Source: the human T2T-CHM13v2.0 reference genome, Homo sapiens. Taken from it: a stretch of 64,000 bases of DNA. Location of the stretch: NCBI RefSeq assembly GCF_009914755.1, contig NC_060929.1. One strand, given 5' to 3'. Below, piece by piece: positions 527 to 17,700 of the stretch. Under the pieces are notes generated by a model. The model saw only the letters and a list, made by a program, of their open reading frames with translations. It did no database searches and had not been told where the DNA came from. Numbering within the stretch: the stretch's first letter is position 1; each line of letters begins with the position of its first letter. Both the position numbers and the translations under genes were made by a program.

Positions 527-1779
527 GATATATTTTGGAAATAGAAATAACAAGGTCATTGTCAACCATTCAGTCCCCACAGGTTTCCAGCAGATGACCT
601 GTGTTGTATGATCGTCTGGTCTTTGTCCTTCAAGAGAAGGTTCTATTCGCTCCCTTAAACAAGGCTCCATGTTCCAAACTGTTCCACCCTGCTCTTCCTG
701 GAATGTCCGTAGATTTATCAAAGAACTTCGCTAGTCTTGCCAGCCAGCTCCTCCACCCTCTTGTAAAAAATATCCATATTTATGTTGAGCTACCACTGAC
801 TCCCCTCACGCTCCCTGTGGCTGGCATTTACATCCAGAGGACTTAAAAGGTTTGGAGGATTCTTCCACATGTAAATGCACCATATGCAAATCAGACCTGT
901 CTGCCTCTGTAGACAGCTGTCAATGGAGGGTGTGCCAGAAACACTTATTTGCCTTTACAGAACACCCCACAGCCCCACAGGCAGGAGGTCTTTAGGGAAA
1001 CAGCAGTGGGGAGACCTAGAGGAGCTGCATCTGCCCCAGTGGCCCAGGATACTTGGCGGCAAGGCTTTGTTCTCCCTCAGAAGATGAATCTTCTTTAACA
1101 GGACCAGAGGGCGTGACCAGCTATGTCATAAGCTTGGAGGCTTTTCATTTTTTGTCCACAAAATCTTGCTCCTGGGTGGTACTGAGTCAAATTCCTTAAC
1201 AATCTAACAGCTGCTCAGTGGCTTATGAAAAATGACTTGCAGCTTCATGGTCTGAGTCCTAGTTTGGAACTTCATGGTGGAAGCCTCCTTGGCAACCATG
1301 ACAGAGATCCTGGGATGGGGTGAAAGACCTTCTGAAAGGAGTGGTCCTTCTGAACTCAGCTTGCATCTCAGGCCAACCGGAAAGCTGCAGAGGCCAGCCT
1401 TGGCCGAGCAGGGCCTTGGGCCTTGAGAAAGATGCTCAGTGTAGGTCTCTCTCCCACTCCTCCCTGGAAGTATATTGGGAAGATTCTATGCAGAAATATC
1501 TATCCAGTTGTTTGTCAGGCCCACCCTATGTAGACTCTATCCTCCATTTTCTAAGAACTGATTCTCCCACCCCCTTGATTCACATGCTTCCTGTGGGAGA
1601 AACGATGTTTTGGCCATTTGACCTCTGCTCTGGCTTCAGTTAATGGAAGACCAATCAGAGTCCCTCCTCTAGGAAAGTAGAAATGAGATCAAGGTCTCAG
1701 TGGGTCTGGTCTCCTGAGTAAAGGAAATGAAATTCTACTAGCTGCAAAAGACCGAGTTTTCCTGAGATTTGGGGCTTGT

Positions 1780-2060
1780 CTATTGTGACAAGTAGCACAA
1801 GCTTCAAATATCAGTGGCTTAACACTGTAAAAGTGTATTTCACATTCGTGCTTGTAGGAATGCCACATGAACACATGACCACCAGCTTGTCACAGCAAGG
1901 GAAGAGAGGGTCACAGAGGATGTTTTTCAGGGTCACGCCGTATGTCACTTTCATATACATTATATTGACCAGAATTAAATTAGATAGCTCAAACATAACT
2001 GTAAGAGGAGCAAGGAAATTAAGTCTTTCTGCATGCCAAGGAAGAGAAAAGGGTGTAGAG
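1780..2060 (-). mobile_element. Old MaLR LTR fragment (MLT1-type)
   Basis: MLT1-like motifs 'tcagtggcttaaca...tatttc' and 'tcactttc...acatt..attgaccagaa...taactgtaagagg'. Highly diverged. Confidence 0.5.
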
Positions 2061-3399
2061 AGCATGCTGTATTGCTTCATCACATACATGAAACTACAAA
2101 CAAGAAAAGTCAATCCCCAAAGAGAAAAGGAAGTGAAATAGGCACATGCTACAAACAGCATCCCTACAATAAACTCCCATTGTGGCCTGAGTTAGTTCAA
2201 GGGGGTTCTCTGTACTTGCAAACAAAGAGAAGTGTACAAATACAGCCTTCAGCATCCACTGCATGATGACTCTTTAAAAGACTTGAAGATAGCACTGTTC
2301 AGAGTCAAGCCCAACTCCTCACTGTGATCAAAAGGTGAAGTTCTACATGCTTGCAACTCTGGACTTCCAGCCGAAAATAGTCTTAAGGACACAAGTGTTC
2401 CAGTGCTGTGGTCTGTTGGCTCAGGTTTAAAGATGAAGCTTTTCATACCACCAGCTGAGAGATTACCCTTCAAGCAGTTATGATTCTTTTTTGAATGGGT
2501 ATACACACTCTTGCAACGGTCATGTTCTGTTGCATTTCACACAAAGGGCTGTAGAGCATGGGGAGGGCTCAAGTTCAAGAGCAGAGCAAGGAAGGCAAAT
2601 GCACAATTAGTATCAGGGCATTTCTATGTGCGGATGAAATAGGTGGCATCTGGGGGCTGTGATCTCAGTGGTTTGAGGAGAATCTTGAGCCCCTAAATGT
2701 TCTTCCTACTCCTACTGCTCACCTCATCCTAGGAACTTCATTGATTCCCCTGGCTTAAGTCTACAGATCTTCCCTACCTCATGTCTTGCCTCAACATTCC
2801 AAAGCTACTGATCCCTGTCGAACTCTCCAGATTCACTCCAGTCTGCCATTCTGTGTTCTACTATACCCTTCCCTCTGCTTAAAATACCCTTGGCCTTCTC
2901 TTCCTCACAGAAGATTCCCCTCACTTTCCTCCACCCTCTGCAGAGCCTTTTCTGTGCAACCAAAAGTGATCACTCCTTCCTCTGTGGCACCATCACCTCC
3001 ATTCCTGCTCTACCAAGTAATTATTTGCTCCTCAGTTGCCCTGCTGTTCCTGCTCAGCCCCCTAAATTTCAACATGGGAACTCCTTTAAGGTAGAATTTC
3101 TTCTGATTTGTATTTAAACTCCTGTGGAACTGTCTATTATCTGACACCTAGTAAGTGCTCAGAAAATAATTCACTAAATAAAGAAACAAACGAATGAATG
3201 AATGACTGAATCTATAAAAATAGTGACCTCAATGAAAGATAAACAATCAAACCTTAGCAAATGTATAAGTAAGTATTGATCAATTTATTTGACCTTTAGG
3301 GTGAATGAGGATGGAAATGCTGGAACTATTTCTTTTTCTCTTGGATTTCCCTATGGAGTGTTCAGGCTCTCAGCTCCTCCTCTGGACTTTCCAAATCAG

Positions 3400-3630
3400 G
3401 TTTCTCCCATATGAATTTTCTTTCCTCTATCTTGCAGTACAGTTCACTTCTGTCTCTTGCTCCCAAACTTGCATACACAGACTCATTGACATGCTTACCA
3501 GTATCAGAATATGAGTTCCATGGGGGAAGGGGCCATGCTTGCCAAGCCCATCAGCATTCCCAGTGCCCAGAACAGTATCTGGACACATAGTAGGTGCTCA
3601 ATAAATACTTGTTAACTCAAGGAAGGAATA
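3400..3630 (+). mobile_element. L2 3'-end fragment
   Basis: L2 3' terminus motif 'cacatagtaggtgctcaataaatacttgtt'. A second L2 tail lies near 3090-3210. Confidence 0.65.
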
Positions 3631-4598
3631 CATAAATCAATCAATATGTGAAAGAATAAAGGCCTTCCTATTAATATGTTACTGACTTTTTAGGAAGCAG
3701 TCTGGGTTTTAAACAGCATTTCTTTTCTGCTATAAGATGATAAATTGGTTTTATCTCATTTTAAAACTCTGATCAAGTGGCAGTGGCTAGCTGGAACACT
3801 CTAATGAGAAGGGTTCAAATTGGGATCAGTGAGAAAAAAAGGACTGTGATTGATTAGTAATGTCTGTCATGCCAAAGGTGGAGAAAGTGGTGATGCATCC
3901 CTGAACTAGAGAAAATCTTAGGGTAATGCATAAGTAATACTTGATGCTGTAGTTCAAACAATAGACATCAGTGCAGAGTGGCAAAAAATAAAGGAGAGTG
4001 GGAAGCATGAGAATGCATACAGCACCCAGGTGAATTTTTATAATGGTAAGAAGTTTTTAAAGTAAATTTCTCTAAAAACTCTCAATGAAATATGTAAATA
4101 AATTCCATAATCAACTTAAATTGCCAAAGCACCAAAATATGAAACTGCAAAAAACTACTCATCCAGTCATAGTATACACAGACTGAGGCAGTTGTTTGGA
4201 TATCTTGGAAAAAATTACCTTCAGATTCTCCGTAGTCTTCACAAGTGCCATTCATCAAATATTTCTAGCATGTTTTCTGTTCGGTACACAGTAAGACTGC
4301 ATCTTTCCTGGCTCCTTGAAGTTGGATGTGATCATAAGATTTGCATTAGCCAATGAGATGTGAGTGGAGGTGACCTGGGTCCCCTTTGGGCAAATGTATT
4401 AAGATTTAATACATTAAGAGCCAATGTATGATTTGCTCCTGTTCTTTCCACCTCCCAGGGAAACAGGCAAAGCTCCAGGCCATAAGGGCTTCTTCAGCCT
4501 GAATCTCTGGCCGAGGACAGCTTGGAGTAGAGGAGGGTCCCCAGAGGATCTGCAGTGGTCACATAGCATGAATGAGAATAAAACCTTTGTTAACATTT

Positions 4599-4959
<361 letters not shown>

Positions 4960-5851
4960 AACCTTTGTTAACATTTTCAAGCCACTGAAATGTGTGGGTT
5001 GTTTATTACTACAATATGACTGAGCCTGTCCTGACTGATGCATTCTCCAAATTGGGAATTACAATATGTCACAGCACAAGGAAAATATGAGACTAGTTGC
5101 TCAGGACCAGTTACCTGGTTAAACACCTCTTTCTCTAAACTGTGGCTTCTGTTCATCTGAAATATTTAGGAAGAGAACCAATACAGGGAGAAATGAAAGC
5201 TTTGCCTCCCACTGCTCCTCCTCCTGAACCTGGGCTCCAGCAAAACAAAGCGAGGCACTGTTCTTGATGATCACCCCCAGGTTTTCTTGGTTCATGCCTT
5301 TGTTTCCACTATCCTCTCTCCTTAGAAACCTTTCCTTCACCTTGTCTCCAAGTCACTCTCATCTCCCAAGGACCAGCTATAATGCCAACTCCTACAAATG
5401 CATCTTCCTGCCACCTAGGAGGGATGTCTTCCCCTTCTGAACTCTGAGAGTACATTTTCAGTATCCTTCTTATTACATTTTTCATTGTCTACCATAAAGG
5501 TTGGTTGAATGCTCATATAAAAGAGTCAAGGGATGGAGAAAAGAAGAAAAAGAGGAGATGGAAGCAAATTCAGGGAATCATGGGCAGCCGTGTGAAAATA
5601 ACATTTGCCAGTTTGGAAAGCTTGTCTTTGCTTCTGTGTTGTATATTTTGGGCTTTCACCGCAAGCCACTTGTTATTCTCGTCACCTTTTATGGGCTGTG
5701 CCACTTCTCCTGTGCCCCAGTTGCTTCCTCTCGACTATGCCTTCTGATCAATTATGTCAATTGTTCACATAGATGTATCCTTGCTGACAGGTAAGGAGAC
5801 CTGTGATTCCTCCTGATTAACGTAATACATACTTCTTCATTTCTTAGTGGT

Positions 5852-12433: not shown

Positions 12434-14231
12434 AGCACTAAAGGATTTAGTATGCTAAAGGATTTAGTATACTAAGCAGGATACTGAAGCTTTGGAGAGC
12501 TGATGGAATTAGCTCTAAATTAGTATACTAAATTACTATACTGAATCCTGCTGCAGTAGGATTGATGGATCATATGGCAGCTCTAGTTTTACTGTTTTGA
12601 GGAACCTCCAAACTGTTCTCCATAGTGGTTGTGCTAATTTACATTGCCACCAACAGCAATCCTTGTCAGCATTTGTTATTACCTGTTTTGGATATGAGCC
12701 ATTTAACTGGGGTGAGGTGATATCTCATTGTAGTTTAGATTTGCATTCCTCTGATGATCAAAGATGTTGAGCACCTTTTCATATGCATGTTTGCCATTTG
12801 TATGTTTTCTTTTGAGAAATGTCTATTCAAATCTTTTGCCCATTTTTTGATTGGATTACCAGACTTTTTCCTATAGAGTTATCTGAGCTCTTTATATATT
12901 CTGGTTATTAATATCTTATCAGAGGGATAGTTTTCAAATGTTTTCTCTAATTCTGTAGGTTGTCTCTTTGCTTTGTTGATTGTTTCCTTTGCTGTGCAAA
13001 ATCTTTTTAACTTGAAGTCATCCCATTTGTCCATTTTTGCTTTTGTTGCCTATGCTTGTCGGGTACAGTTTAAGAAATTTTTGCCCAGACCAGTGTCCTG
13101 GAGATTTTCCCCAATTTTTTTTTTTTTTGTAGTAGTTGCATAGTTTGAGTTCTTAAAGTCTTTAATCAATTTTGATTTGATTTTTGTACATGGTGAAAAA
13201 TAGGAGTATAGCTTCATTCTTCTACATATGGATATCCGGTTTTGCCAGCACCATTTATTGAAGAGACTGTCTTTTTCCCACTGTATATTCCTAGTATCTT
13301 TGTCAAAAATGAAGTCACTGTAGGTGTGTATATTTGTTTCTGGGTTCTCTGTTCTGTTCCATTGATATGTGTGTCTGTTTTTATTTCAGTACCATGCTGT
13401 TTTGATCACTATAGCTCTCTATATAATTTGAAGTCAGGTAGTGTGATTTCTTTACTTTTGTTATTTTTGCCTAGGATAGCTTTGGCTATTCTGGGTCTTT
13501 TGTGGTTCCATATAAATTTTAGGATAATTTTTTTTCTATTTCTGCGAGGAATGTCATTGGTATTTTGGTAGGGATTGCACTGAATCTGTAGATTGCTTTG
13601 GGTAGTATGTACATCTTAACAATACTGATTCTTCCAATCCATGAACATAACTTTTTTTATTATTTTTTTGGTGTCCTCTTTAATTTCTTTCATCAGTATT
13701 TCATAGTTTTCATTATAGTGCTCTTTCACTTCTTTGGTTAAGTTAATTCCTAGATATTTAATTTTATTTGTGGCTATTGTAAATGTTATTACTTTTTACA
13801 TTTCTTTTCTGCATTGCTCACTGTTGGCATATAGAAATGCTACTGATTTTGTTATGTTGATTTTTTTATTTTCATTATTATATTTCAATAGATTTTGGGG
13901 GAACAGGTGGTGTTTGGTTACGTGAATAAGTTCTTTAGTGGTGATATCTGAGATTTTGGTGCACCCATCACCACAGCAGTGTACACTGTACCCAATATGT
14001 AGTCTTTTATCCCTTGTCACCCCCACCCTTTCTCCCAAGTCCCCGAAGTCCAATATGTCATTCTTATGCCTTTGTATCCTCACAGCTTAGCTCCCACAAA
14101 TAAGTGAGAACATACGATGTTTGGAAATTTCCATTCCAATTTCCACTGCTTCACTTAGAATAAGTCTCCAATTCCATCCACGTTGCTGCAAATGCCATTA
14201 TTTCATTCCCTTTTATGGCTGAATAGTTCAG

Positions 14232-14740
14232 CTCCCAGTTCGGCTACTCGGGTGTCAGGGACCCACTTGAGGAGGCAGTCTGTCTGTTGTCAGATCTCAA
14301 ACTCTGTGCTGGGAAAACCACTACTCTCTTCAAAGCTGTCAGACAGGGACATTTAAGTCTGCAGAGGTTTCTGCTGCCTTTTGTTTGGCTATGCCGGGCC
14401 CCCAGAGGGTGAGTCTACAGAGGCAGGCAGGCCTCCTTGAGCTGTGGTGGGCTCCCCCCAGTTGGAGCTTCCCGGCTGCTTTGTTTCCCTACTCAAACCT
14501 CAGCAATGGCAGGCGCCCCTCCCCCAGCCTTGCTGCCACCTTGCAGATTGATCTCAGACTGCTGTGCTAGCAATGAGCGAGGCTCCGTGGGCATGGGACC
14601 CTCCGAGCCAGGTGCGGGATATAATCTCCTGGTGTGCCATTTGCTCAGTTGGAAATGCAGACATCACCCGTCTTCTGCGTTGCTCACGCTGGGAGCTGTA
14701 GGCTGGAGCTGTTCCTATTTGGTCATCTTGGAACCGCCCC
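14232..14740 (-). mobile_element. L1PA (about L1PA4-6) 5'UTR-only fragment with an internal splice-like deletion
   Basis: Minus strand starts GGGGCGGTTCCAAGATGACCAAATAGGAACAGCTCC. Junction CCAACTGAG|CAAATGGCACACC at 14644/14643. No poly(A) and no TSD. Confidence 0.92.
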
Positions 14741-14769
14741 TGGCAGTATGGTCATTTTCACAACACTGA
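14506..14769 (+). other. L1 ORF0-derived open frame (87 aa) with a non-standard C-terminus; expression unknown
   Basis: ATG at 14506 gives MAGAPPPALLPPCRLISDCCASNERGSVGMGPSEPGAGYNLLVC, the recognisable N-terminus of primate L1 ORF0. The frame then reads across the deletion junction. Confidence 0.6.
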
Positions 14770-17700
14770 TTCTACCCATCCATGAGCATAGGATGTGTTT
14801 CCATTTGTTTGTGTCATCTATGATTTCTTTCAGCAGTGTTTTGTAGTTTTTTTCCTTGTACAGGTCTTTCACATCCTTGGTTAGATATACCAAGAATTTT
14901 ATTTTATTTTTTGCAGCTATTGTGAAAGGGGTTGAGTTCCTGATTTGATTCTCAGTTTGGTTGCTGTGGGTGTATAGCAGAGCTATTGATTTGTGTACAT
15001 TAATTTTGTATGCTGAAACTTTGCTGAATTCATTTACCAATTCTAGGAGCTTTTTGGATGAGTCTTTAGGGTTTTCTAGGTATATGATCATATCATCAGC
15101 AAACTGTGACAGTTTGACTTCCTCTTTACCAATTTGGATGCTCTTTATTTCTTTCTCTTGTCTGATTGCCCTGGCTAGGACTTCCAGTACTATGTGGAAT
15201 AGAAGTGGTGAAAGTGGGCATCCTTGTCTTGTTCCAGTTCCCAGGGGAAATGCTTTCAACTTTTCCCCATTTAGTACAATGTTGGCTGTGGGTTTCCTGT
15301 AAATGGTTTTTATTACCTTAAGGTATGTCCCTTCTATGCCAATTTTGCTGAGAGTTTTAATCATAAAGTGATTTGAATTTTGTCAAATGCTTTTCCTGCA
15401 TCTATTGAGATGATCATGTGGTTTTTGTTTTCAATCCTGTTTACGTGTTGTATCACATTTATTAACAAACCATTTATTGATATTAAACCATCCTTGCATC
15501 TCTGGTATGAAACCCAGTTGATGATGGTAGATTATCTTTTTGATATGCTGTTGGATTGGGTTCAATAGTATTTTCCTGAGGATATTTGCATCTATGTTCA
15601 TTAGGAATATTGGTCTTTAGGTTTTTTTTTAATTTTTTTATGTCTTTCCCTGGTTTTGGTATTAGGGTAATACTGGCTTTATAGAATGATTTAAGGAGGA
15701 TTCCCTCTTTCTTTGTCTTTTGGAATAATGTCAAGAGGATTGGTATCAATTCCTCTTTGAATGTGTGATAGAATTCAGCTGTGAGTCCGTCTGGTCCTGG
15801 ACTTTTCTTTGTTGGCAATGTTTAAATTATCATTTCAAACTTGCTGCTTCTTATTGGTCTGTTCAGAGATTCTATATCTTCCTGGTTTAATCTAGGAGGG
15901 TTGTATATTTCCAAGAATTTGTCCATCTCCTCTAGGTTTTTTAGTTTATGTGCATAAAGGTGTTCATAGTAGCCTTGAATAATCTTTTGTATTCCTGTGG
16001 TATCAGTTGTGGTATCTCCTATTTTGTTTCTAATTGAGCTTATTTGGATCTTCTCTCTTCTTTTCTTAGTTAATCTTGCTAAAGGTCTATCAATTTTGTT
16101 TATCTTTTCAAAGAACCAGGTTTCTGTTTCATTATCTTTTGTATTTGTTGTTGTTGTTGTTTCCATTTCATTTAGTTCTGCTCTGACCTTTGTTCTTTTT
16201 TTCTGCTGGAGTTTGTGTTGGGATTGTTCTTGTTTCTCCAATTCCATGAGGTGTGACCTTAGATTGTCTATTTATGCTCTTTCAGACTTTTTGATGTGGA
16301 CATTTAGTACTATGAACTTTCCTGTTAGCATCACTTTTGCTGTATCCCAGAGGTTTTGATAGGTTGTGTCACTATTATCATCCAATTCAAATAATTTTTA
16401 AAATTTCCATCTTGATTTCATTTTTGACCCAATAATCACTCAGGAGAAGGTTATTTAATTTCCACATATTTACATGGTTTTGAGGGTTCTTTCTAGAGTT
16501 GATTTCATTTTATTCCACTCTGAGAGAGTACTGGATGTAAGTCCAATTGTCTTAAGTGTACTGAGACTTGTTTTGTGGCCTATCATATTGTCTACCTTGG
16601 AAAATGTTCCATGTGCTGATGAATAGAATGTATATTCTGCAGTTATTGTATAGAATGTTCTGTAAATATCTGTTAAGTCATTTGTTGTAGGGTATAGTTT
16701 AAGTCCATTGTTTCTTTGTTGACTTTCTGTCTTGATGACTTGTCTAGAGCTGTTAGGTCTAGTAGTAATTGTTTTATAAATTCTGAAGCTCCAGTGTTAG
16801 GTGCATATATATTTAGGATTGTGATATTTGCCTGTTGGACTAGTTCTTTTATCATTATATAATGTCCTTTTTTGTCTTTTTTAAATGCTGTTGTTTTGTT
16901 TTGTCTGATATAAGAATAGCTACTCTTGCTTGCTTTTGGTGTCCATTTGCATGGAATATATTTTTCCACCCCTTTACCTTAACTTTATGTGAGTCCTTAT
17001 GTGTTAGGTGAGTCTCCTGACCACAGCAGAAACTTGATTGGTGAACTCTTAATTATTCTGTGTCTTTTCAGTGGAGCATTTAGGCCACTTACATCCAATG
17101 TCAGTATCGAGATGGGAGGTACTATTCTATTCATTGTACCATTTGTTCCCTGAATACTTTGTGCCTTTTTCATTGTGTTATTGTTATATAGGACCTGTGA
17201 AATTTATGCTTAAGGAGGTTCTATTTTGGTGTATTTTGAGGATTTGTTTCAAGATTTAGAGCTCTTTTGAGCAGTTCTTATAGTGCTGGCTTGGTAATGG
17301 TGAATTTTCTCAGCATTTATGTTTCTGGAAAAGACTGTATCTTTCCTTCATTTATGAAGCTTAGTTTCGCTGGATACAAAATTCCTGGCTGATAATTGTT
17401 TTGTTTAAGGAGGCTAAAAATAGGACACAATCCCTTCTACCTTGTAGGGTTTCTCCTGAGAAATCTGCTGTTAATCTGATAGGTTTTCCTTTATAGTTTA
17501 CATGATACTTTTGCCTCACAGCTCTTAAGATTCTTTCCTTTGTCTTGCCTTGAAATAAACTGATAATAATTATGTGCCTACGTGATGATCTTTTTGTGAT
17601 GTTGAAGTCTATTCTTTTTATACTCAGTTTTTTTTGAGGATTTTTATCATGAAGGAATGTTGAATTTTATCAAATAGTTTTTCAGCATCAATTGAAATGA

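What the first reader, a model, noticed from the sequence alone, without database searches (positions are those of the whole stretch)
14232..14740. Spliced L1PA 5'UTR cDNA captured without poly(A) or TSD, replacing about 1.2 kb of an older L1PB
Seen: the fragment begins at the true L1 5' end (GGGGCGGTTCCAAGATG, minus strand, 14740) and runs exactly 97 nt to ...CCAACTGAG. It then jumps to CAAATGGCACACC and stops in mid-5'UTR with about 4 nt of filler. The host L1PB jumps from the ORF2 C-terminal end ('ggctgaatagt', 14227) to 'tggcagtatggtc' (14741). Other L1 copies in this window put that gap at about 1.2 kb. Known: +97 is the major L1 5'UTR splice donor, and the consensus as I recall it has ...TTAG directly before CAAACGGCACACC near +300. 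That is a canonical acceptor, different from the commonly described ones near +622, +790 and +976. Inference: a spliced L1 RNA was reverse-transcribed from an internal priming site to its 5' end and used to patch a double-strand break (endonuclease-independent insertion with target deletion).
Basis: partly seen in the sequence, partly recalled or inferred. Interest (0 to 1): 0.8.

Follow-up and report, generated by a model that had tools for sequence, protein, structure and literature searches.

The report
Stub of a spliced L1 retrocopy
A 509-base piece of an old L1 jumping gene, copied from an RNA that had lost a small intron, sits inside an older L1; the splice junction recurs across the genome and looks undescribed, but how this piece got cut short is unsettled.

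Summary
On the minus strand, 14740-14644 is L1PA 5'UTR nt 1-97. It is joined directly to 14643-14232, which matches about nt 315-725 of unspliced relatives. The missing 217 nt begin with GT and end with AG in most relatives.

The same junction occurs in at least 21 places in this genome. Fifteen of the others were read in full. Twelve are near full-length L1s, and all 15 end in an A-rich tail. Six or more have clear target-site duplications. On a tree the spliced copies lie scattered among unspliced ones, and a single origin is rejected. None falls in the clade whose acceptor AG has mutated. This is recurrent splicing, and it looks like a spliced-L1 (SpIRE) class with a 97/315 junction that I did not find in print.

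The host L1PB lacks about 1,212 bp, and it is roughly twice as old as the insert.

The endonuclease-independent patch idea is not shown. An ordinary full-length insertion followed by a deletion of about 6.6 kb gives the same picture. An EN-like TG/AAAA site lies 18 nt upstream of the insert. I favour that route at about 0.55, against 0.25 for the patch. Orthologous primate loci would decide, and none could be reached here.

The parts
14644..14740 (-). L1PA 5'UTR nt 1-97 ('exon 1'). It begins at the true L1 5' end and ends at the G98U99 splice donor.
   Evidence: Matches ref 8-95 of unspliced L054. Relatives start with the same GGGGCGGTTCC / GGGGTGGAGCC.
14232..14643 (-). L1PA 5'UTR from the acceptor (about nt 315 of unspliced relatives) to about nt 725 ('exon 2', cut short in mid-5'UTR).
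   Evidence: 88.2% identical to ref 293-722. The end of homology is at ...aactgggag.
14643..14644 (-). Splice junction ...CCAACTGAG|CAAATGGCACACC (97/315). It replaces a 217-nt GT..AG segment.
14741..17590 (-). Host L1PB, 5' part. It is 5'-truncated in ORF1 and runs to ORF2 position ref 4384.
13861..14231 (-). Host L1PB, 3' part: ORF2 C-terminal end, 3'UTR and A tail. It resumes about 1,212 bp downstream of the break.
   Evidence: The same intact relatives carry both parts 1,211-1,213 bp apart.
14741..14758 (-). AAAATGACCATACTGCCA, preceded by TG. This is a possible upstream target-site-duplication copy and EN-like nick site (TTTT/CA on the other strand), if the L1PA arrived by ordinary target-primed reverse transcription.
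   Evidence: Such a site lies within 6-20 nt at 4.8% of host positions (29% for NNAAAA).
12659..13860 (-). Older L1M-type ORF2 fragment (ref 4198-5328) into which the L1PB inserted.
   Evidence: (70.2% to the L1PA reference).

Best explanation
The insert is the 5' stub of a retrotransposed, spliced L1PA RNA. An L1PA of an older type (CCAACTGAG / GGCACACC; subfamily not assigned by any tool) was transcribed from its own start. The RNA was spliced from the known donor G98U99 to a canonical acceptor (...CTAAT..GCTTTTCCAACGGTCTTAG|CAAACGG) 217 nt downstream. It was then reverse-transcribed into the genome.

This splicing happened many times. It left at least 21 copies, mostly full-length with A tails and target-site duplications. 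That makes a SpIRE class (97/315) that I did not find in print. Younger relatives whose acceptor AG has become AA have left no such copies.

For this particular copy the most likely route has two steps. First, a full-length spliced element inserted by ordinary target-primed reverse transcription into ORF2 of a pre-existing L1PB, at TG/AAAATGACCATACTGCCA. Second, a later non-homologous deletion of about 6.6 kb removed the L1PA from about nt 725 to its tail, the downstream duplication copy, and about 1,212 bp of L1PB.

Shown: the anatomy, GT..AG, the recurrence, the independent origins and the relative ages. Inferred: the two-step route. The splicing origin alone I put at about 0.9. The confidence given below is for the whole statement, including the two-step route.
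For: GT..AG.
- Of the 20 unspliced relatives in which the donor motif was located, 19 start the missing piece with GT and 1 with CT. The piece is 217 nt in 13, 202-204 nt in 6 and 191 nt in 1.
- 21 of 29 unspliced relatives end the piece with AG, and 8 do not.

Recurrence.
- 16 pattern hits against 0 for the control.
- With a 100-nt probe, 20 of the 40 scored matches span the junction. Five of these are new, giving 21 distinct copies. The five were confirmed.

Retrotransposition hallmarks in the other copies.
- Of 15 others read in full, 12 are 5.86-5.94 kb L1s with only this gap.
- All 15 end in an A-rich tail, and at least 6 have duplications of 14-19 nt.

Independent origins.
- 16 spliced rows need 15 changes on a 45-row tree, against a shuffled mean of 13.5.
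- The AU test rejects one clade: dlnL 322.7, p 8e-41, 42 rows after three long-branch rows were dropped.
- Both exon-1 variants, GTTCC and GAGCC, occur among spliced and unspliced copies.

The acceptor is needed.
- The starred clade of 8 AG-less unspliced copies holds 0 of 16 spliced copies. Fisher p = 0.037.

The gap is not a repeat-mediated deletion.
- The short TTTCCAAC repeat near both ends is out of register with the junction.

Ages.
- In the same ORF2 stretch, the window L1PB has an end branch of 0.07. The L1PA copies have 0.019-0.06, median about 0.03.
- The insert's end branch is 0.083 against a family median of 0.073.

The two-step route.
- An EN-like TG/AAAA lies 18 nt upstream of the insert.
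- All 20 other copies run past the nt-725 break.
- Sen 2007 states that deletions of L1 3' ends mimic endonuclease-independent loci, and that ordinary insertions are orders of magnitude more frequent.
Against: - No trace of the deleted L1PA body, tail or second duplication copy is left, so the two-step route has no direct evidence.
- The EN-like site is weak support, because NNAAAA occurs within range at 29% of host positions.
- The 3' junction has no EN-like sequence and little or no microhomology. That fits a break repaired either way.
- A 509-nt insert with a 1.2-kb target loss lies inside the ranges reported for endonuclease-independent loci: 34-4,410 bp inserted and 5-14,534 bp lost.
- My prior odds for deletion against patch rest on rough rates, not on a count made here.
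- No RNA evidence for the 97/315 splice was available.
- The unspliced comparison set is the first 30 of 79 exact matches to one 33-mer. One of them was a spliced copy and was dropped, so the set is a biased sample.
Confidence: 0.55

Rival explanations
1. Endonuclease-independent capture. A double-strand break in the L1PB lost about 1.2 kb. A free 3' end primed reverse transcription on a spliced L1PA RNA at about nt 725. The cDNA ran to the RNA's 5' end, and the product was joined to the other break end.
For: - The insert is 3'-truncated, has no poly(A) and no duplication, and comes with a flanking deletion.
- The insert starts exactly at the RNA 5' end.
- The 3' junction is not EN-like.
- The sizes fall within those of the 21 published loci.
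Against: - The same picture arises from a later deletion, and the source paper says so.
- Such events are rare: 21 loci in that whole-genome screen.
- An EN-like TG/AAAA at duplication distance lies upstream of the insert.
- No clear microhomology at either junction.
- The pre-insertion site cannot be seen with these tools.
Confidence: 0.25
2. DNA-templated patch. A break in the L1PB was repaired by copying from an existing genomic 97/315 copy (synthesis-dependent or microhomology-mediated), not from RNA.
For: At least 20 potential donor copies exist in the genome.
Against: - Copying from DNA gives no reason to start exactly at L1 nt 1.
- No extant copy is specially close. The nearest rows lie at path length 0.13-0.14, and the insert's own end branch is 0.074.
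Confidence: 0.05
3. One-event chimera. While the L1PB RNA was being reverse-transcribed, the enzyme jumped to a spliced L1PA RNA, copied it to its 5' end, and jumped back to the L1PB RNA 1.2 kb upstream.
For: - All three pieces have the same orientation and order.
- Template switching by the L1 enzyme is documented (Sen 2007 passages).
Against: - In the same ORF2 stretch, the L1PB end branch is about twice that of the L1PA family (0.07 against a median of about 0.03).
- The insert is as old as the L1PA family, not as old as the L1PB.
- Two switches would be needed, with a return to the same RNA.
Confidence: 0.03
4. The 217-nt gap is not splicing. It is either a constitutive deletion of one L1PA sub-lineage or a recurrent DNA deletion between short repeats.
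For: A short imperfect repeat (TTTCCAAC) lies near both ends of the gap.
Against: - One clade is rejected.
- The junction is out of register with the repeat and falls on GT..AG.
- No spliced copy falls in the AG-less clade.
- One copy (L047) carries a second GT..AG gap ending at the published 622 acceptor.
Confidence: 0.03

Closest known systems
SpIREs (spliced integrated retrotransposed elements): SpIRE97/622, 97/790, 97/853 and 97/976. Larson et al. 2018, PLoS Biol, PMC5860796 (passages read).
   Same: - Same donor (G98U99).
- Intra-5'UTR GT..AG gap.
- Full-length L1 bodies with A tails and target-site duplications.
- A few per cent of copies: 3 of the 79 exact acceptor 33-mer matches are spliced (with the places).
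   Different: - The acceptor lies about 217 nt downstream of the donor (about nt 314/315). It is not among the published 621, 789, 852 and 975.
- The class sits in an older L1PA type, and a broadened pattern found no copy with the other sequence variants.
- The gap is small and spares most of the 5'UTR, so the promoter loss reported for 97/622 need not apply (not tested).
- The window copy itself lacks the insertion hallmarks.
Non-classical (endonuclease-independent) L1 insertions, NCLI. Sen et al. 2007, NAR, PMC1920257 (passages read). Morrish et al. 2002 (reference listing only).
   Same: 3' truncation, no poly(A), no duplication, a target deletion, and a few ambiguous nucleotides at a junction.
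   Different: - The published loci were accepted only with a pre-insertion site from chimpanzee or macaque and with clear divergence from the EN site. Neither condition is met here.
- The published set was restricted to elements under 2% diverged. This insert is far older.
Old L1 insertions truncated by later genomic deletion.
   Same: A 5'-intact L1 stub joined to flank that lacks the expected sequence. The junction is non-homologous.
   Different: Nothing distinguishes it, and that is the point. It is the null model for this locus.

Membership tests
SpIRE (Larson 2018) | The gap starts at the 5'UTR splice donor G98U99, directly after L1 nt 97. | tested here: met
   Exon 1 is exactly 97 nt (14740-14644). 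19 of 20 relatives read GT at the next two bases.
SpIRE (Larson 2018) | The gap ends at an AG acceptor in unspliced elements of the same type. | tested here: met
   21 of 29 unspliced relatives read ...TCTTAG|CAAAYGG. The 8 without AG form one clade that holds no spliced copy.
SpIRE (Larson 2018) | Recurrent genomic copies with L1 insertion hallmarks (A tail, target-site duplication, EN site). | tested here: met
   This holds for the class. There are 21 copies. 12 of the 15 read in full are near full-length, and at least 6 of 15 have clear duplications.
SpIRE (Larson 2018) | This particular copy shows the insertion hallmarks. | tested here: not met
   No A tail and no second duplication copy. 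The element ends at about nt 725. Only a possible upstream duplication copy and nick site are present.
SpIRE (Larson 2018) | The splice is seen in RNA (RT-PCR or RNA-seq). | not testable with these tools
   No transcript data were available.
Endonuclease-independent L1 insertion (NCLI, Sen 2007) | 3' truncation and absence of poly(A). | tested here: met
   The insert ends in mid-5'UTR at ...aactgggag(c), with no A run.
Endonuclease-independent L1 insertion (NCLI, Sen 2007) | Absence of target-site duplications of any length. | tested here: inconclusive
   None is present. Under the rival route the second copy would have been deleted, so absence does not discriminate.
Endonuclease-independent L1 insertion (NCLI, Sen 2007) | The insertion site diverges significantly from the L1 EN consensus. 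| tested here: inconclusive
   The 3' junction is not EN-like. However, TG/AAAA lies 18 nt upstream of the 5' junction, as expected for an ordinary insertion.
Endonuclease-independent L1 insertion (NCLI, Sen 2007) | The pre-insertion site is recovered from another species, with flank boundaries that match the insert ends. | not testable with these tools
   No primate genome other than the window's own assembly can be searched here.

The most novel reading that the evidence does not exclude
This copy is a genuine endonuclease-independent repair patch made from a spliced L1 RNA. In addition, the 97/315 acceptor was a strong splice site of an older L1PA type that the lineage later lost (AG to AA) because it wasted transcripts. 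That would be a case of a retrotransposon purging a harmful splice site, complementary to the published 97/622 class that starts only in younger subfamilies.
Probability: 0.2. Interest if true: 0.5.

Novelty: new variant of a known kind. Interest (0 to 1): 0.4.

Why it matters
Spliced L1 retrocopies record how often L1 RNA is mis-processed, and they show how the 5'UTR changes under that cost. The published classes use four acceptors. The most abundant class, 97/622, was found in L1PA1-L1PA6 only.

A fifth acceptor would extend that record back in time. It is used repeatedly in an older L1PA type, and no spliced copy comes from the relatives that mutated the AG. This gives a simple natural experiment on splice-site loss.

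For annotation, elements like these would be scored as full-length L1s with a small 5'UTR deletion. The locus itself lies in a gene-poor stretch, and I saw no sign of host function. Its value is as a test case for telling break-repair insertions apart from later deletions.

Tried and rejected
- Belancio 2006 and 2008 and Khan 2006 are not held. I could not check their lists of splice sites or assign an L1PA subfamily from published consensus sequences. Subfamily names in this report are therefore approximate.
- Supplements of Larson 2018 (S1 Table, S1 Data) were not opened. A 97/315 copy listed there under another label would not have been seen.
- My first automated duplication finder failed. 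It was replaced by a BLAST-anchored version, which still misses degraded duplications. 'At least 6 of 15' is therefore a floor.
Only 1.2 kb of each was read, so their 3' ends are unknown.
- I considered using the three large internal gaps in other copies (L040, L046, L047) as a rate of post-insertion deletion. I rejected this. Their junctions show microhomology and could have formed during reverse transcription.
- Premature polyadenylation is rejected, because there is no A run at the 3' junction.
- Homologous recombination between the L1PA and L1PB ORF2 regions is rejected. The L1PA ends in its 5'UTR, not at a position homologous to the L1PB restart.
- A second splice from the L1PA 5'UTR into the 3' piece is rejected. 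That piece is L1PB-type, not L1PA-type.

Full report
**What is in the sequence**

Read on the minus strand, an L1 ORF2 runs down to ...gtgaaaatgaccatactgcca at 14741. At 14740 a different sequence starts, ggggcggttccaagatgaccaaatagg. This is the 5' end seen in full-length L1PA relatives elsewhere in the genome. It runs exactly 97 nt to ...ccaactgag (14644) and continues at 14643 with caaatggcacacc.

I compared it with an unspliced genomic relative (L054, reverse-complemented, used only as a ruler). The two pieces match ref 8-95 and ref 293-722, the second at 88.2% identity. The insert ends at ...aactgggag(c). The older L1 then resumes at (c)tgaactattcagccataaaa. Between 1 and 5 nt at this junction cannot be assigned.

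**The missing piece is an intron**

I fetched 30 genomic matches to the 33 nt that follow the junction. They are the first 30 of 79, taken in chromosome order. One turned out to be a spliced copy and was dropped, which left 29 unspliced copies.
- In the 20 where the donor motif could be located, the missing piece is 217 nt in 13, 202-204 nt in 6 and 191 nt in 1.
- It starts with GT in 19 of those 20 and with CT in 1.
- It ends ...GCTTTTCCAACGGTCTTAG in 21 of 29. The other 8 read ...GGCTTAA or similar and have no AG.
- A CTAAT lies about 25 nt upstream of the AG. That this fits a branch site is my reading, not a test.
- The junction has the usual 2-nt ambiguity (AG on both sides), and one register is the canonical GT..AG.
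- A short TTTCCAAC repeat lies near both ends. The junction is out of register with it, so a repeat-mediated deletion does not fit.

The donor is the published G98U99. The acceptors published for spliced L1 retrocopies are A620G621, A788G789, A851G852 and A974G975 (Larson 2018, PMC5860796, passages). This acceptor is not one of them. In the held library only that paper contains the word 'SpIRE97'. Two later papers that cite it do not mention such a junction (passages seen). Belancio 2006 and 2008 could not be read.

**The junction recurs, and not as one lineage**

- The 22-mer junction has 16 genomic hits, against 0 for the reversed control.
- With a 100-nt probe, 20 of the 40 scored matches span the junction. 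The other 20 cover only the downstream half.
- Together this gives 21 distinct copies, counting the window's. The count is a floor, because the searches tolerate little decay.

Of the 15 others read over about 7 kb:
- 12 are L1s of 5.86-5.94 kb with only this gap.
- 1 (L051) measures about 6.2 kb.
- 3 carry further large gaps.
- All 15 end in an A-rich tail, and at least 6 show duplications of 14-19 nt.

The five extra copies, read over 1.2 kb each, all carry the junction and continue past ref 1300.

I built a tree from the 1,450 nt downstream of the junction, with 45 rows.
- The 16 spliced copies need 15 changes of state, no fewer than shuffled labels need (mean 13.5).
- Starred branches force at least 3 origins.
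- After three long-branch rows were dropped (U_L009, S_L040, S_L047), an AU test rejects a single clade: dlnL 322.7, p 8e-41, 42 rows.
- Exon 1 was not used for the tree. It comes in two variants (GTTCC, GAGCC), and both occur in spliced and unspliced copies.
- The 8 unspliced copies without the AG form one starred clade, with somewhat shorter end branches. That clade holds none of the 16 spliced copies. Fisher p = 0.037.
- A pattern broadened at four positions found the same 16 copies and no other sequence type.

I read this as repeated splicing of RNAs from several source elements, dependent on the AG. I put that at about 0.9.

**The host**

- The flank above the insert (14741-15140) is 88-91% identical to many genomic L1s. 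The flank below (13866-14231) is 84-86% identical to others.
- The same intact elements carry both parts 1,211-1,213 bp apart (L058, L067, L068). L062, which has a deletion of its own, gives 1,095 bp.
- The lower identity of the lower part is regional. The relatives differ from each other by the same amounts in the two stretches.
- The 3' part does not match the L1PA ruler by BLAST. The label L1PB for it rests on my recall of that 3'UTR, not on a library.
- The element is 5'-truncated at about 17590, ends in an A tail at 13861, and lies inside a still older L1M-type ORF2.
- In the same ORF2 stretch, its end branch is 0.07. The L1PA copies have 0.019-0.06, median about 0.03.
- The insert's own end branch over the 5'UTR is 0.083, against a family median of 0.073.

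So a younger L1PA sequence entered an older L1PB. This makes a one-event chimera at the time of the L1PB insertion unlikely.

**How the stub arose**

Two routes give exactly what is seen.

A break in the L1PB lost 1.2 kb. Reverse transcription was primed internally on a spliced RNA and ran to the RNA's 5' end.

(b) The two-step route. A full-length spliced element inserted in the ordinary way at this point. Later, a non-homologous deletion of about 6.6 kb removed the element from about nt 725 onward, its tail, the second duplication copy, and 1.2 kb of L1PB.

Sen 2007 (PMC1920257, passages) describes route (b) as the known mimic of route (a). That study accepted loci only with a pre-insertion site from another primate. 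It found 21 such loci in the genome and states that ordinary insertions are orders of magnitude more frequent.

What bears on the choice here:
- The 18 nt upstream of the insert read TG/AAAATGACCATACTGCCA, an EN-like nick site at duplication distance. T[TG]AAAA within 6-20 nt occurs at 4.8% of positions in this host element, and NNAAAA at 29%. This is modest support for (b).
- The 3' junction is not EN-like and shows no clear microhomology. That does not discriminate.
- All 20 other copies extend past nt 725, so the break point is private to this copy.

Weighing the rarity of (a) against the long time available for a deletion, I favour (b) at about 0.55 and put (a) at about 0.25. These odds rest on rough rates, not on a count made here. 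No other primate genome could be searched.

**Other routes considered**

- Copying from a genomic DNA copy would not be expected to start exactly at L1 nt 1, and no extant copy is specially close.
- Premature polyadenylation is excluded, because there is no A run at the junction.
- Homologous exchange between the two ORF2s is excluded. The L1PA ends in its 5'UTR.

**Verdict**

The splicing claim is supported and widened: the junction defines a recurrent class of spliced L1 retrocopies with an acceptor that I did not find described. The double-strand-break patch is possible but not shown, and the ordinary route is at least as good. This is a new variant of a known kind and of moderate interest to L1 specialists. 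The locus itself shows no sign of host function.

Noticed in passing
L047 (G000:C1:226414600-226421830, minus strand), ref 467/619: This 97/315 copy has a second gap in the 5'UTR bounded by ...TAG|GTAAAC and ...CTGTCTGACAG|CTTTGAAG. It is a GT..AG piece of about 151 nt. By my recall its acceptor is the published 622 site, paired here with a different donor. It looks like a doubly spliced retrocopy.
   Followed up: partly
L040, L047 and L046: Three of the 15 other spliced copies carry large internal gaps: ref 1004 to 5715, 1133 to 4522, and 4363 to 5224. The junctions lie in short repeats (microhomology), not at GT..AG. Whether they formed during reverse transcription or later is open. The left end of the L046 gap lies about 21 nt from the position where the window's L1PB is broken.
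   Followed up: partly
window 17591-17605 and 13847-13860 (minus strand): The host L1PB is flanked by TCAACATCACAAAAA at its 5' end and by TCAACATAACAAAA after its A tail. This may be its target-site duplication. The surrounding old L1M would then lack about 330 bp (ref about 3786 to 4118). The two L1M positions may also resemble each other naturally, so the match may be partly chance.
   Followed up: partly
L064 (G000:C1:3548614-3552010), about 3324-3397: In another L1PB relative, an L1PA 5' end (88% identical to nt 3-71 of the window's insert) starts right inside the L1PB 3' region. It is an unrelated nested insertion that happens to look similar.
   Followed up: no
L054 (G000:C5:54487000-54494200), ref about 3148-3157: The unspliced copy used as a ruler lacks about 185 bp that all 15 spliced copies have at this point. 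Reference coordinates beyond 3150 are therefore shifted by that much.
   Followed up: no
exon 1 of spliced versus unspliced copies: The GTTCC variant near the L1 start is seen in 11 of 15 spliced copies, counting near-variants. It is seen in about 5 of the 22 unspliced copies where exon 1 was found. All AG-less copies with a readable start have GAGCC or CAGCC. Splicing seems concentrated in the type that looks older.
   Followed up: partly
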